From sequence record PZ445429.1: a DNA stretch of 64,000 nt; one strand, given 5' to 3'. The first letter of the stretch is position 1. Each line of letters begins with the position of its first letter. Shown piece after piece: positions 15,886 through 29,938 of this stretch. Made by a program: the position numbers and the translations under genes. The notes under the pieces were generated by a model. That model was not told the origin of the DNA and ran no database searches. It saw only the letters and a list, made by a program, of their open reading frames with translations. Origin of the DNA: a phage.

Positions 15886-16513
15886 TAATAGTGGGGTGCC
15901 GAAACCACTTATGTAACAACACTGCCGTCCTAGTATAATAGGTATTATTAGGGCTTCACCGCCTGAAGATGTGGGTTCGAGTCCCACGGTCGGAAAGAGT
16001 TGGATAACTGGTGCTTCTAATGGCGAAGCAATCGCAGGCAGTTGCGCACTGCCAAAACCACGCGGTAGTTGGTTCCAGGCTAACCAACCACTCTTGAAAA
16101 GTATATACTATGGTTTTGCTTGTTCAAGAAGCTTCGCATCGAAAATCGGAGGTGCGATTTTATCCGACCGCGTGGAGGACGTCTCTCCGTTAAGTGACGA
16201 AAAGTGGGACGATTCAGGTAGAGCTGGATATGGAACACCTATACATATGCGGAGTGCGCACAAAGCATATTGCGGTGGTACTAAACGAAATTAGGAGTCA
16301 TGACCTGCACAAGTTTAGTATGTCATAACCGATGTACATTCAGTACAAAAACCACTGAAGCTAAGATAGATAGTCACCTTGACTTAAACTGGAAGATATT
16401 GTCTGACGGAAGGGCTGCAGAGCTTAATCTGAGGGGGCTGACCCTACCTACCGTCGGGTATCTTTAAGAGCTTTTATAAGAGTTCTTAAAAATACCTAAC
16501 AAAAGGAATCAAT
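15886..16513 (+). ncRNA. ~630-nt ORF-poor GC-richer segment with tRNA-like T-arm and hairpins (candidate structured RNA)
   Basis: GUGGG-UUCGAGU-CCCAC T-arm at ~15971-15988, hairpin GGCAGUUGCGCACUGCC, long-range complementarity GGUCGG(15990)/CCGACC(16166); only a low-quality 107-aa ORF. Confidence 0.25.
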
Positions 16514-24257: not shown

Positions 24258-24332
24258 GCACCTTTAGCTGAGATGGATTAGCGCTTGCCTGAAGAGCTTG
24301 AGAGGTTGGATCGTTACCAACGGGGTGCACCA
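24258..24332 (+). tRNA. tRNA, anticodon unresolved (non-canonical T-loop AUCGUUA)
   Basis: acceptor GCACCUU/GGGGUGC plus CCA; anticodon arm could not be folded cleanly by hand. Confidence 0.35.
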
Positions 24333-25455: not shown

Positions 25456-26037
25456 ATGCACGGAATATCCTTACCCATTCCAGGGTTTGAGGAGTACTTA
25501 GTAAGTTTGGATGGGTTAGTATTTAGTATCAAATCAAACAAAATACTAACCCCAATAACCAGTAATTACGGATACTTATCTATACGTCTCCATAAAAATG
25601 GTCAACAGAGAAATACCGGTGTACATAGGATTTTAGCATGTGCATTTAAGAAATTACCAAGTCTAGACTCTGAACTAGAAGTTGACCATATTAACACAGA
25701 CATTACTTATTGGGGTCTTAATAACTTACAAGTGCTCACAAAAGAGCAGCATCTAGAAAAGACTTTAAAAGACAAAGGATTTAGTAAACTAAACCATGAT
25801 AATTGTTGTAAGGATTGTGGTAAAGCTATTTCTTTAAAAGCTGAAAAATGTCAGGAGTGCTCTTCACATAAACCAAAAGATATCTCTATAACTAAAGAAA
25901 TAATCGAGGTTACAGTAAGAGAGCTAGGCTGGTCAGGTGCAGGGAGAAAGTTAAGTTATTCAGATAATGGGTTGCGTAAAAGATACACTTCTTTAGGAGG
26001 CAATCCTAAAGAACTTAAAAAGTTAAAGGTACTATAG
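25456..26037 (+). CDS. HNH homing endonuclease with C-terminal zinc ribbon
   Basis: HRILACAF...EVDHINTD...NNLQVLTKEQH HNH core; CKDCGK...CQEC. Confidence 0.65.
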   Translation: MHGISLPIPGFEEYLVSLDGLVFSIKSNKILTPITSNYGYLSIRLHKNGQQRNTGVHRILACAFKKLPSLDSELEVDHINTDITYWGLNNLQVLTKEQHLEKTLKDKGFSKLNHDNCCKDCGKAISLKAEKCQECSSHKPKDISITKEIIEVTVRELGWSGAGRKLSYSDNGLRKRYTSLGGNPKELKKLKVL

Positions 26038-26108: not shown

Positions 26109-26185
26109 ACATCCATAGCTCAATTGGTTAGAGCTACCGCCTCTTAAGCGGTAGGTTCTAGGTTCAAGTCCTAGTGGGTGTACCA
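26109..26185 (+). tRNA. tRNA-Lys (anticodon CUU)
   Basis: anticodon stem ACCGC/GCGGU loop CUCUUAA, T-loop UUCAAGU, CCA. Confidence 0.65.
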
Positions 26186-26267
26186 AACATCAGAGCAGCG
26201 TGATGTACTGCAAAGACCCAAAGTCCGGGGTGGACTTCTTGATTCAAAGGAGCAGGCATTAATTATC

Positions 26268-26389
26268 ATTCTAGCGTGGTGGAGAGGGGACACCAGCTTG
26301 CCGAGGGTAGAAGCTCGTTCGATTCGAGTGAAAGAATGGTTCTCGTAAATCCGCACAAGTGATAGTAGGTTCAAGTCCTACCTAGATTG
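26268..26389 (+). ncRNA. tRNA-like element with ~45-nt insertion (interrupted or degenerate tRNA)
   Basis: terminal helix AUUCUAG/CUAGAUU (6 of 7 bp) encloses 122 nt ending in canonical T-arm GUAGG-UUCAAGU-CCUAC; no CCA. Confidence 0.25.
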
Positions 26390-26398
26390 ACTCATTAT

Positions 26399-26469
26399 GC
26401 GTTCGTAGTTAAAAGGTATAATTTTTGGTTGCCAACCAGAAGTTGAGGGTTCGATTCCCTCCGACCGCA
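26399..26469 (+). tRNA. tRNA-Gly (anticodon GCC), CCA not encoded
   Basis: D-stem GUUA/UAAU, anticodon stem UUUGG/CCAGA loop UUGCCAA, T-loop UUCGAUU; one acceptor mismatch. Confidence 0.5.
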
Positions 26470-26788
26470 CAAAATCTTTGTAGGTCGCGTCACTTATAGT
26501 GGGACTACAGGGTAAACAAGGCGATGAGTTTCCGGCCGGTTCTAGTCGCTGAAAATCCTCCCGACCAGGTAGGTGTAGGTAAACGAAAGTTTACTTATTG
26601 AGTAGGTTCCGATAGATCGGCGGGTCTATTCTGGCGTTTAAGAGAAGTCTCGCAAACTTCTTTGTCAGCCGTGGGGCTTGAACCCTCCAGGTGGCCTACG
26701 CAATAAGTAAATTTATTAAAAATTCATTTGCTATTTTGCTTAATTCTCTGTATAATATATCTTATAAAGTGTTGAGAAGGAAAGCAAA

Positions 26789-28330: not shown

Positions 28331-28591
28331 TGCTTAATTTCTTGTTATAATATTTATATAAATTGATGAGGAGAAATCCTCATCAAAGTTCACTAAGGTA
28401 TTAGCTCGACCCAGGACTGGCTGCCAAAAAGCACGATCCCTACGACTCGGGAGAAGTTCTAGATTAGTCCACTAGATTCAGCGGCAACTGAATAGTGTAT
28501 CGGGTTTGTGAAGAGCGGTTATCCTCTACTGGCTAATGTCTGAGGGTAATACGCACACCGAGCTAATAGCCTTAGTAAACTTAAAGATTTT

Positions 28592-29550: not shown

Positions 29551-29938
29551 CAACTAGTATTCTTGAAGTATGCCGGAATCGGTAGACGGGGCTTCCTAAA
29601 GGGCGTAAGGGGAACATCCACTCCTCATAAGATACCCGAAAACGAGGCTGAGATAAATGGTCTATCTCATGAAGGTTCAAGTCCTTCTGCTTCTTGATAT
29701 TCAATGGCTCAAAGTGTAACGGTGCTATTTGATGTTCTTAGTAAGACTTTCCCGACATGCGTTCGGGAGTAAGCTGCTAAGGCTAGAGTAGAAGAGTTTC
29801 GGAGAGCCGCCACAATTGAGTATTACTAGAGAGCATTCGCAAGAAAGAATCAGGAGAAAGACCTGTGCGCAGAATGACTAACTTTGGTACCTTAGACGGC
29901 CAAATGGAGGACTGATCATCCCCTAATAGTATTCAATT

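What the first reader, a model, noticed from the sequence alone, without database searches (positions are those of the whole stretch)
26186..26398. tRNA-like element carrying a ~45-nt insertion
A 6/7-bp terminal helix (AUUCUAG at 26268, CUAGAUU at 26382) and a canonical T-arm (GUAGG-UUCAAGU-CCUAC) enclose 122 nt, too long for a tRNA unless it has an intron or insertion. It may be an intron-containing tRNA, a disrupted pseudo-tRNA or a tRNA-derived regulatory RNA.
Basis: seen in the sequence. Interest (0 to 1): 0.45.

Follow-up and report, generated by a model that had tools for sequence, protein, structure and literature searches.

The report
Phage T5 "RNA2" tRNA-like RNA
This is the counterpart of phage T5's long-annotated "RNA2", a small tRNA-shaped RNA in the phage's tRNA gene cluster whose anticodon loop is replaced by a conserved folded module, so it cannot decode and its job is still unknown.

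Summary
Positions 26268-26388 carry a 7-position terminal helix (6 pairs plus one U-U), a D-arm and a canonical T-arm around about 46 extra nucleotides.

The window is a T5-like phage (Epseptimavirus). The element is the ortholog of the misc_RNA "RNA2, tRNA-like stable RNA with unknown functions" annotated in T5 and BF23. It shares 89.7% identity over all 125 nt and has the same neighbours.

It is not an intron-containing tRNA, a decayed tRNA or a tmRNA. Rfam and ARAGORN find nothing there, and the "insertion" is the most conserved part.

A covariance model built here scores 37 non-redundant members at 46-140 bits. They come from T5-like phages, T4-like Acinetobacter phages, a 311-kb phage contig and uncultivated phages, and most sit inside tRNA arrays.

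Covariation supports the acceptor stem, D-stem, T-arm and a branched arm in place of the anticodon arm. That arm ends in a second T-loop hairpin and an invariant AUGGU pentaloop.

The best reading is a non-decoding tRNA mimic, matured with the tRNAs, that presents a conserved distal binding module. Its partner is unknown. The RNA itself is already known; the family breadth and structure model may be new.

The parts
26267..26392 (+). Whole RNA: ortholog of T5/BF23 'RNA2', using the boundaries of the T5/BF23 annotation (C-1 to the ACU tail)
   Evidence: blastn of BF23 RNA2 (125 nt) against the window: 1-125 aligns to 26267-26392 at 89.7% identity. Annotation in BF23 and T5. CM R1 gives 134 bits for 26268-26389.
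26268..26274 (+). Acceptor-stem 5' strand, AUUCUAG
   Evidence: Pairs with 26382-26388. All 7 pairs show changes on both sides across the family.
26277..26295 (+). D-arm: stem UGGU/ACCA with an 11-nt loop containing GG
   Evidence: 4/4 pairs covary. The stem is lost in the Acinetobacter-phage and some metagenomic members.
26296..26300 (+). P2 5' strand, in the position of the anticodon stem; pairs with 26356-26360
   Evidence: 4/4 modelled pairs covary, 97.9% paired. RNAalifold adds a fifth pair, 26296-26360 (GU17/AU6/UA4/CG3).
26305..26311 (+). 5' strand of P5a (GGGU, 26305-26308) and P5b (GA, 26310-26311), with A26309 unpaired
   Evidence: 26308-26349 is UA16/CG12/UU7. 26311-26343 is AU17/UA9/GC5/CG1/UG1.
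26314..26328 (+). P3: inner T-arm-like hairpin CUCG-UUCGAUU-CGAG. The closing G-C is invariant, as G53-C61 is in tRNA.
   Evidence: 3/4 pairs covary, 99.3% paired. The loop GUUCRAUUC is invariant in 37/37 members.
26334..26342 (+). P6: 2-bp stem (26334-26342, 26335-26341) closing the invariant pentaloop AUGGU (26336-26340)
   Evidence: 26335-26341 is AU22/UA11/CG1. 26334-26342 is GC29/GU2/UA2.
26343..26352 (+). 3' strand of P5b (UC), near-invariant GUAA bulge (26345-26348), and 3' strand of P5a (AUCC)
   Evidence: The alternative pairing UGG(26337-39)/CCG(26351-53), 'P4', is invariant and so cannot be tested.
26356..26360 (+). P2 3' strand
26365..26381 (+). Canonical T-arm GUAGG-UUCAAGU-CCUAC
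   Evidence: 4/5 pairs covary, 98.9% paired.
26382..26389 (+). Acceptor-stem 3' strand CUAGAUU plus discriminator G. It is followed by ACU, not CCA.
26186..26266 (+). Separate upstream module (spacer or small RNA?) included in the finding's coordinates; not part of RNA2
   Evidence: It matches alone at 94-97.5% identity in Klebsiella Sugarland-like phages, where it lies between an ...ACCA 3' end and tRNA-Phe. Its fold is not distinctive, z = -0.4.

Best explanation
The element is the Epseptimavirus ortholog of bacteriophage T5/BF23 RNA2. It is a roughly 125-nt non-decoding tRNA mimic encoded inside the phage tRNA gene cluster, on the tRNA strand.

Shown here:
- It has a genuine tRNA 'top half': a 7-bp acceptor stem, a D-arm with GG, a 5-nt variable loop and a canonical T-arm.
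- The anticodon stem position (P2) opens into a conserved, nested, branched arm rather than a 7-nt anticodon loop.
- That arm runs P2, internal loop, P5a (GGGU/AUCC), GUAA bulge, then P5b stacked on P6, which is capped by the invariant pentaloop AUGGU.
- A second T-arm-like hairpin (P3, loop UUCGAUU, invariant closing G-C) branches from this arm.

Inferred:
- It is co-transcribed with the flanking tRNAs. It is cut out by the tRNA-processing machinery: RNase P at the 5' end, and 3' trimming possibly followed by CCA addition. The acceptor/T-arm minihelix is what those enzymes read.
- The top half therefore supplies maturation and stability. The conserved distal module is the functional surface. 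The P3 T-loop plausibly docks on the GG of the AUGGU loop, as the T- and D-loops do in a tRNA elbow.
- Through this surface the RNA binds a conserved host or phage component that reads tRNA shape, and titrates or recruits it. The partner is not identified.

It cannot act as an adaptor in translation, because it has no anticodon loop.
For: Identity:
- 89.7% identity over the full 125 nt of BF23 RNA2.
- The neighbourhood matches: tRNA-Gly(GCC) 6 nt downstream, then RNAIV.
- T5 and BF23 records call it 'tRNA-like (stable) RNA with unknown functions'.

Family:
- Pattern scans plus CM R1 give 37 non-redundant members at 46-140 bits, against 40 bits or less for true tRNAs.
- Members occur in Demerecviridae (Tequintavirus, Epseptimavirus, Priunavirus, Kamaji), in Straboviridae of Acinetobacter (Acj9, 133, ZZ1), on a 311-kb contig, and in freshwater and gut metagenomes.
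- Most lie in tRNA arrays on the tRNA strand, often within 15 nt of a neighbouring tRNA.

Structure:
- 93.7% of cells are paired and 26/32 pairs change on both sides. The covariation score is 0.70, against 0.17 in shuffles and 0.13 or less with slid partners.
- The P5/P6 pairs were found by a blind mutual-information scan of an alignment that had been fitted to a different model.
- They show several independent switches. Examples are ZZ1 against AB1I1P, L008 against the window, and L024 against L019.

Conservation: the invariant columns are concentrated in the 'insertion' (AGGG, GUUCRAUUC, AUGGU, CGUAA, UCC), while the acceptor sequence is free to vary.

Not coding: a 1-nt indel between the window and BF23 lies inside both overlapping ORFs.

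Context: the T5 tRNA region is dispensable in the laboratory, and at least one of its RNAs is a counter-defence factor (tRNA-Lys against PARIS; PMC11464382).
Against: - No expression, end-mapping or binding data could be examined. 'Stable RNA' rests on the wording of two GenBank records, and I could not check its experimental basis.
- The single-sequence fold is not unusually stable (z = +0.68). The proposed structure (-15.7 kcal/mol) is far above the MFE (-30.4), so it would need tertiary contacts or proteins.
- P5b and P6 are only 2 bp each. RNAalifold prefers the competing invariant helix UGG/CCG.
- The T-loop to GG-loop contact involves invariant bases and has no covariation support.
- Acinetobacter-phage members lack a convincing acceptor stem and D-stem, so processing like a tRNA may not hold for all members.
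- No conserved protein neighbour was found, and the core has no similarity to any E. coli sequence. There is therefore no pointer to the partner.
Confidence: 0.7

Rival explanations
1. Counter-defence decoy. RNA2 is a tRNA look-alike that soaks up or inhibits a tRNA-directed host immune nuclease or toxin, as other RNAs of the T5 tRNA region rescue infection from tRNA-cleaving systems. This is a specific version of the binding-module model.
For: - The T5 tRNA region is non-essential, and its tRNA-Lys neutralises PARIS (PMC11464382).
- Schlafen and retron systems that act on T5 also cleave tRNAs (titles and abstracts).
- RNA2 sits in accessory, homing-endonuclease-rich DNA.
Against: - Known anti-tRNA effectors mostly read the anticodon loop, which RNA2 lacks.
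- Defence systems are sporadic and diverse. The RNA2 core, by contrast, is nearly invariant across phages of enterobacteria, Acinetobacter and uncultured freshwater hosts, which fits a universal target better.
- No defence or anti-defence gene is linked to it.
Confidence: 0.15
2. Intron-containing tRNA. The extra 46 nt or so are removed to give a decoding tRNA, for example tRNA-Thr(CGU).
For: - Five of 780 in-silico deletions (removing about 26297-26336 or 26305-26340) make ARAGORN call a tRNA-Thr(cgt), using CUCGUAA as the anticodon loop.
- CGUAA is nearly invariant.
Against: - No intron family is hit in Rfam. ARAGORN with intron detection finds nothing at default settings, and only a weak tRNA-Pro(agg) call at a relaxed threshold.
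- The required 'intron' would lie between the D-arm and the anticodon arm, not in the anticodon loop.
- The base at the U33 position varies (U, A, C or G) and covaries with 26311 as a base pair.
- The 'intron' is more conserved than the 'exons'.
- T5 and BF23 annotate the RNA unspliced at 125 nt.
Confidence: 0.03
3. Decaying pseudo-tRNA, or a fused remnant of two tRNA genes, with no function of its own. It would be kept only as a processing spacer in the polycistronic tRNA transcript.
For: - It has two T-arm-like hairpins.
- The annotation pipeline for Enterobacter phage KKP_3711 calls its first 70 nt 'tRNA-Arg(ccg)'.
- An origin from tRNA sequence is plausible.
Against: - Compensatory changes maintain all helices across very distant phages, and about 30 positions are invariant.
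- A spacer or relic would not keep a 55-nt core nearly unchanged between Demerecviridae and Straboviridae.
- A few copies do look degenerate, such as the acceptor of L025, which shows what decay actually looks like.
Confidence: 0.04
4. Small protein-coding gene, as some genome records annotate: 'hypothetical protein' over the locus, or Acj9p148.
For: - ORFs of 56 aa (+, 26178-26348) and 67 aa (-, 26171-26374) overlap the element.
- Several records place a CDS there.
Against: - A 1-nt indel in the D-loop between the window and BF23 breaks both frames.
- Substitutions are pairwise-compensatory in stems.
- The only 'protein family' shared between loci at this spot is the translated RNA itself.
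Confidence: 0.01

Closest known systems
Bacteriophage T5 / BF23 RNA2 (misc_RNA 'rna2' in AY543070.1 and NC_042564.1: 'tRNA-like stable RNA with unknown functions')
   Same: Orthologous: 89.7% identity over the full length, the same position next to tRNA-Gly and RNAIV, and the same helices with compensatory changes.
   Different: One extra D-loop nucleotide. A U-U mismatch at acceptor pair 2:71. A U-A pair instead of C-G at 26308-26349. Here it follows tRNA-Lys(CUU) plus an 81-nt module, rather than ORF trn 2.10.
Bacteriophage T4 species 1 and species 2 RNAs (rnaC, rnaD)
   Same: Small stable RNAs of unknown function encoded at the end of a phage tRNA cluster. rnaC has a tRNA-like T-arm near its 3' end. 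From my own knowledge, they are matured together with the tRNAs.
   Different: Not homologous: CM R1 gives only 15 bits (E = 0.23) on rnaC, covering just the T-arm. They have none of the AGGG / inner T-loop / AUGGU / CGUAA core. T4-like Acinetobacter phages, however, do carry true RNA2-family members.
Canonical tRNA (Rfam RF00005)
   Same: Acceptor stem, D-arm with GG, variable loop, T-arm with G53-C61 and UUCRA. Some members (for example L060) have a fully canonical top half with U8, A14 and A21.
   Different: No 7-nt anticodon loop. The arm is extended and branched. The RF00005 score is 12.4 bits against a threshold of 29, and ARAGORN makes no call.
tmRNA tRNA-like domain and bacterial Y-RNA-like YrlA (other non-decoding tRNA mimics)
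   Same: A tRNA-like elbow and acceptor region joined to a non-tRNA functional module where the anticodon arm would be. Members without a D-stem resemble the tmRNA tRNA-like domain in that respect.
   Different: No G3-U70 pair, no tag reading frame and no pseudoknots. ARAGORN and Rfam find no tmRNA or YrlA match in the element. One phage contig (L051) carries both a real tmRNA and an RNA2-family member.

Membership tests
T5/BF23 RNA2 (tRNA-like stable RNA) | Full-length sequence homology to the annotated RNA2 | tested here: met
   BF23 RNA2 positions 1-125 align to window 26267-26392 at 89.7% identity, E = 1e-43.
T5/BF23 RNA2 (tRNA-like stable RNA) | Same genomic position in the tRNA gene region (upstream of tRNA-Gly(GCC) and RNAIV, on the tRNA strand) | tested here: met
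   tRNA-Gly lies at 26399-26470 and the RNAIV homolog at 26602-26702. The BF23 order is RNA2, tRNA-Gly2, RNAIV.
T5/BF23 RNA2 (tRNA-like stable RNA) | Shared secondary structure maintained by compensatory change | tested here: met
   T-stem U-A against C-G. Acceptor pair 2:71 is U-U in the window, U-A in BF23, and A1-U72 becomes G1-C72 in KKP_3711. D-stem U-A against C-G.
T5/BF23 RNA2 (tRNA-like stable RNA) | Accumulates as a discrete stable RNA of about 125 nt in infected cells | not testable with these tools
   Only the wording of the GenBank notes is available. No primary data were found in the paper library.
Canonical tRNA | Cloverleaf with a 5-bp anticodon stem and a 7-nt loop (U33, anticodon, R37) | tested here: not met
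   ARAGORN makes no call. RF00005 gives 12.4 bits against 29. The P2 helix encloses 55 structured nucleotides.
Canonical tRNA | Acceptor stem, D-arm with G18G19, and T-arm with G53-C61 and T54-A58 | tested here: met
Intron-containing tRNA (group I intron or other) | Recognisable intron (group I/II core) inserted in the anticodon loop | tested here: not met
   No Rfam intron hit up to E = 10. The insert is only about 46-55 nt.
Intron-containing tRNA (group I intron or other) | Removal of the insert restores a standard tRNA; exons are more conserved than the intron | tested here: not met
   Only 5 of 780 deletions give a tRNA call, and their boundaries are non-canonical. The insert holds most of the invariant columns.
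tmRNA | Alanine identity pair G3-U70, tag ORF, pseudoknots | tested here: not met
   Pair 3:70 is UA20/GC6/AU5/CG4/UG1 and never G-U. ARAGORN -m finds none. Rfam tmRNA gives 5.8 bits on the T-arm only.
T4 species 1/2 RNA (rnaC/rnaD) | Sequence and structure homology to rnaC or rnaD | tested here: not met
   R1 on the T4 tRNA region gives 15.3 bits, E = 0.23, on rnaC. No shared core motifs by eye.
T4 species 1/2 RNA (rnaC/rnaD) | Non-tRNA stable RNA encoded within a phage tRNA cluster (resemblance in kind) | tested here: met
Y RNA-like YrlA (RF02553) | Match to the YrlA covariance model (Ro-binding stem plus permuted tRNA-like domain) | tested here: not met
   No hit inside 26186-26398. The only weak hit, 16.5 bits, lies on the neighbouring tRNAs.

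The most novel reading that the evidence does not exclude
RNA2 defines a widespread family of phage tRNA mimics that is absent from Rfam. The family is found in Demerecviridae, in T4-like Acinetobacter phages, on a 311-kb contig and in uncultivated phages.

In these RNAs the anticodon loop is replaced by a second 'elbow', made of a T-loop hairpin and a GG pentaloop on a branched arm. The double-elbow RNA would specifically engage a universally conserved reader of tRNA shape, and reprogramme or shield tRNA metabolism or translation during infection. Candidate readers are RNase P, T-loop modification enzymes, the CCA-adding enzyme, a ribosomal elbow-contact site, or a tRNA-directed immune effector.
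Probability: 0.25. Interest if true: 0.7.

Novelty: already known. Interest (0 to 1): 0.4.

Why it matters
By my recollection, phage tRNA clusters have been known for about 50 years to encode extra stable RNAs (T4 species 1 and 2; T5 RNA I-IV and RNA1-3) whose roles were never established.

This analysis shows that one of them is not a T5 curiosity. It is a conserved structured family shared by unrelated large virulent phages, with a precise set of invariant nucleotides and a testable fold. That gives concrete mutants and baits for finding its partner.

There is also a practical point. The locus is left unannotated, or mis-annotated as a CDS or as 'tRNA-Arg', in hundreds of phage genomes. A covariance model for it would fix that.

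Tried and rejected
- **Rfam.** Gathering and E <= 10 scans of the window, the 1-kb neighbourhood and the 213-nt gap found nothing in the element.
- **Single-sequence folding.** It was uninformative: z = +0.68 for RNA2 and -0.40 for the upstream module.
- **First core model.** My first model had a hairpin 'P4', UGG/CCG with an 11-nt loop. Its pairs never vary. I replaced it after a mutual-information scan revealed nested pairs P5a, P5b and P6. RNAalifold still prefers P4, so P4 is not excluded.
- **Pseudoknot CGAG/CUCG.** Pairing between the junction and the loop was rejected, because BF23, L008 and L019 break it without compensation (by eye).
- **Resemblance to E. coli 5S rRNA loop E** (GAGAGUAG / GAUGGUAG, recalled from memory). 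Rejected because that strand arrangement is incompatible with the strongest covarying pair, 26311-26343. The T5 clade also has C at 26308.
- **Other recalled resemblances.** The 23S GTPase-centre 1095 loop and the SRP Alu UGUAAU motif could not be tested and are not claimed.
- **tmRNA-like reading frames.** AUG GUU CUC ... UGA in the window is not conserved in other members (by eye).
- **Homology to T4 rnaC/rnaD.** Not supported.
- **Similarity or antisense match of the core to E. coli genomes.** None.
- **Conserved protein neighbours.** All-against-all blastp of ORFs from 22 loci found nothing shared beyond the Acinetobacter-phage clade; the top 'family' was the translated RNA itself. An 'RF-1 domain' ORF lies next to the ZZ1 copy, but I did not check the neighbouring ORFs of other members for that domain.
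- **Literature searches** for T5/BF23 stable RNAs found no open-access primary data.
- **Pattern-scan false positives.** The genome-collection hits L048 and L049 and the metagenome hit L071 were chance matches without structure.

Full report
**Context.** ARAGORN finds 28 tRNA genes on the + strand between 15.9 and 31.6 kb of the window. The 1-kb neighbourhood of the finding is 99.6% identical to Escherichia phage vB_EcoS_Ace (Demerecviridae, Epseptimavirus), a T5-like phage. The finding's coordinates, 26186-26398, are exactly the gap between tRNA-Lys(CUU) (26109-26185) and tRNA-Gly(GCC) (26399-26470). In the Ace record this gap is unannotated.

**Observation.**
- AUUCUAG at 26268-26274 pairs with CUAGAUU at 26382-26388, giving 6 pairs plus U2-U71.
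- The T-arm GUAGG-UUCAAGU-CCUAC lies at 26365-26381.
- A D-arm lies at 26277-26295 (UGGU/ACCA, loop with GG).
- Up to the discriminator G26389 the span is 122 nt.

Neither ARAGORN nor Rfam 15 recognises anything here. This holds at gathering thresholds, and at E <= 10 on 1 kb or on the 213 nt alone. The tRNA model reaches only 12.4 bits.

**Identity.** A blastn search with the 213 nt hits 504 phage records.
- In the BF23 tRNA-region record, the match to query positions 82-211 lies under a misc_RNA named rna2: 'RNA2, tRNA-like RNA with unknown functions'. It is 125 nt and lies 6 nt upstream of tRNA-Gly2.
- The T5 genome AY543070 carries the same feature, 'tRNA-like stable RNA with unknown functions'.
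- BF23 RNA2 aligns end to end with window 26267-26392 at 89.7% identity.
- The differences from the window are partly compensatory. Examples are T-stem U-A against C-G and acceptor U-U against U-A.
- The window also holds homologs of BF23 RNAIV (26602-26702), RNA 2H (28399-28511), RNA1 (29562-29705) and RNAI (29706-29812).

So the element is an ortholog of an already annotated phage RNA. Most other records leave it blank, put a hypothetical CDS over it, or call its first 70 nt 'tRNA-Arg(ccg)', as in Enterobacter phage KKP_3711.

**A wider family.** A weak blastn hit led to the T4-like Acinetobacter phage Acj9. There a related sequence directly follows tRNA-Gly and lies inside an annotated CDS.
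- Exact-pattern scans with the conserved core gave 35 viral loci, 21 metagenome loci and 3 'genome' loci. The pattern was GTTCRATTC-N8-12-ATGGT-N3-6-CGTAANTCC.
- Three of these hits are structureless chance matches. One 'bacterium' MAG contig looks like a T4-like phage.
- Members occur in Tequintavirus, Epseptimavirus, Priunavirus (Providencia PSTCR5), Serratia phage Kamaji, and Acinetobacter phages Acj9, 133, ZZ1 and AB1I1P.
- They also occur on uncultivated contigs of 164, 204 and 311 kb, and on several freshwater and gut contigs.
- Most lie within tRNA arrays on the tRNA strand, often within 15 nt of a neighbouring tRNA.
- A covariance model built from 13 sequences (R1) separates members from ordinary tRNAs. 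Members score 67-140 bits, and one variant with an extra hairpin scores 46. Ordinary tRNAs score 40 bits or less.
- The model finds a single copy in the window. It scores T4 rnaC at only 15 bits.

**Structure.** I worked on the 37-member alignment A5.
- The tRNA-like helices and the two helices I first placed in the insert are strongly supported. 94.3% of cells are paired, against 64% in shuffles and 31-47% with slid partners.
- 22 of 27 pairs change on both sides: acceptor 7/7, D-stem 4/4, P2 4/4, inner hairpin P3 3/4 and T-arm 4/5.
- My third inner helix (P4, UGG/CCG) never varies, so it has no support.
- A blind mutual-information scan then picked out four further Watson-Crick covarying pairs that were not in the model:
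  - 26311-26343: AU17/UA9/GC5/CG1/UG1
  - 26335-26341: AU22/UA11/CG1
  - 26308-26349: UA16/CG12/UU7
  - 26334-26342: GC29/GU2/UA2
- Together these define a fully nested alternative:
  - P2 (26296-26300 with 26356-26360)
  - an internal loop
  - P5a (GGGU with AUCC)
  - a near-invariant GUAA bulge opposite A26309
  - P5b (2 bp) stacked directly on P6 (2 bp), which closes the invariant pentaloop AUGGU
  - the T-arm-like hairpin P3 (loop UUCGAUU, invariant closing G-C) branching between P5b and P6
- The three 'variable' loop nucleotides I had noticed are all explained as paired positions.
- The full model gives 93.7% paired cells, 26/32 pairs with double changes, and a covariation score of 0.70 against 0.17 in shuffles.
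- The switches recur in separate lineages.
- Caveats: the new helices are short; RNAalifold prefers P4; both models cost about -15.6 kcal/mol against an MFE of -30.4; and A5 was fitted to R1, although not to the P5/P6 pairs.

**What it is not.**
- *Not an intron-containing tRNA.* There is no intron signature. The insert is the most conserved segment. Only 5 of 780 in-silico deletions make ARAGORN call a tRNA, a tRNA-Thr(CGU) with non-canonical boundaries. The would-be U33 varies and is base-paired.
- *Not a decaying pseudo-tRNA.* The covariation shows this.
- *Not a tmRNA.* There is no G3-U70, no tag ORF and no ARAGORN or Rfam tmRNA call. One contig carries both a real tmRNA and an RNA2-family member.
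- *Not coding.* A frame-breaking 1-nt indel separates the window from BF23.

The ARAGORN deletion result and the 'tRNA-Arg' mis-call do suggest that the RNA evolved from tRNA sequence.

**How it most likely works.**
- *Shown:* a tRNA top half joined to a conserved branched arm, with no anticodon loop.
- *Inferred from established knowledge:* RNase P, 3'-processing enzymes and the CCA-adding enzyme read the acceptor/T-arm and the elbow. RNA2 should therefore be excised from the tRNA polycistron like its neighbours, and protected like a tRNA.
- The 3' tail is ACU, ACA or ACC in most T5-likes and CCA in KKP_3711, so CCA would have to be added after trimming.
- Acceptor sequences and discriminator bases vary freely, and no G3-U70 or G-1:C73 identity is present. 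Aminoacylation is therefore unlikely.
- The invariant distal module is the probable functional surface. It contains a perfect T-arm mimic beside a GG-bearing pentaloop, the two ingredients of a tRNA elbow.
- I therefore favour a shape-mimic that binds a conserved tRNA-reading component.
- A decoy role against tRNA-directed immunity is a narrower version of this model. The T5 tRNA region is dispensable and includes a proven counter-defence RNA, which makes that version attractive (PMC11464382). The near-invariance of the core across very different hosts makes it less attractive.
- I found no pointer to the partner. The core has no E. coli similarity, and there is no conserved neighbouring protein.

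**Verdict.** The object is the already annotated T5/BF23 RNA2, so it is not novel as an entity. As far as I could check, three things are not catalogued: the breadth of the family, the covariation-supported branched-arm model, and the fact that the 'insertion' is the conserved functional core. The family is absent from Rfam 15, and I found no literature on it in the searchable library. Interest is moderate.

Noticed in passing
window 26186-26266: An 81-nt module between tRNA-Lys(CUU) and RNA2. It recurs on its own at 94-97.5% identity in Klebsiella Sugarland-like phages. In the three phages aligned (this window, Sugarland, KKP_3711) it comes right after an ...ACCA 3' end and right before the 5' end of a tRNA or of RNA2. 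BF23 and T5 have a different sequence there. Its fold is not distinctive (z = -0.4). It may be a small RNA or a processing element.
   Followed up: partly
window 26602-26702, 28399-28511, 29562-29705, 29706-29812: Homologs of the other BF23/T5 RNAs of unknown function: RNAIV, RNA 2H (partial), RNA1 ('tRNA-like', 144 nt) and RNAI (blastn). None is a member of the RNA2 family according to CM R1.
   Followed up: partly
window 26471-26601: A stretch of about 130 nt without an ORF, between tRNA-Gly and the RNAIV homolog. It is not annotated in Ace and was not analysed further.
   Followed up: no
window 24258-24329: Rfam calls a tRNA here (33.4 bits) that ARAGORN misses. Its T-loop region reads UGGAUCGUUACCA, which is non-canonical. 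A near-identical odd tRNA lies directly upstream of the RNA2 homolog in Serratia phage Kamaji (L003, about 222-300).
   Followed up: no
window 15923-15996: ARAGORN calls a 'tRNA-SeC' with anticodon UCA, a possible opal suppressor. Rfam scores it at only 33 bits.
   Followed up: no
window 25456-26037: A 193-aa HNH-type homing-endonuclease ORF (so annotated in phage Ace) overlaps the 5' end of tRNA-Asp (26028) by 10 nt.
   Followed up: no
L004 684-753 (Enterobacter phage KKP_3711, PP579741.1): The annotated 'tRNA-Arg(ccg)' is the 5' 70 nt of the RNA2 homolog (acceptor 5' strand, D-arm and inner T-like hairpin). It is a false tRNA call.
   Followed up: yes
L006 562-792 (Acinetobacter phage Acj9, CDS Acj9p148): The annotated CDS overlies an RNA2-family member (about 570-684). 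A second unannotated sequence follows it, with a GGAAAGU.../...GCUUUCC terminal helix and GCCA end (about 684-775). ARAGORN calls neither.
   Followed up: partly
L015 528-758 (Acinetobacter phage ZZ1): Directly downstream of the RNA2-family member lies a 76-aa ORF annotated 'RF-1 domain peptide chain release factor'. Its sequence has no GGQ motif. I did not check other members for the same neighbour.
   Followed up: partly
L005 about 710-800 (Klebsiella phage Sugarland): An unannotated element of about 90 nt between tRNA-Lys and the 81-nt module. It has a terminal helix GGGACUU/AAGUUCC followed by ACCA. ARAGORN does not call it.
   Followed up: no
L054 about 1088-1245; L023 4910-5049: Two architectural variants of the family. 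L054 has a perfect 23-bp terminal helix instead of a 7-bp acceptor stem. L023 carries an extra hairpin (GGAUCG...CGAUCC) inserted after the P2 5' strand and scores only 46 bits.
   Followed up: partly
L051 7557-7931; L050 7053-7127; L063 1300-1373 and 2473-2546: Phage contigs that carry RNA2-family members also encode a tmRNA (L051; tag ANDTVYALAA), and suppressor-type tRNAs with anticodon CUA (L050, L063) or UUA (L063).
   Followed up: no
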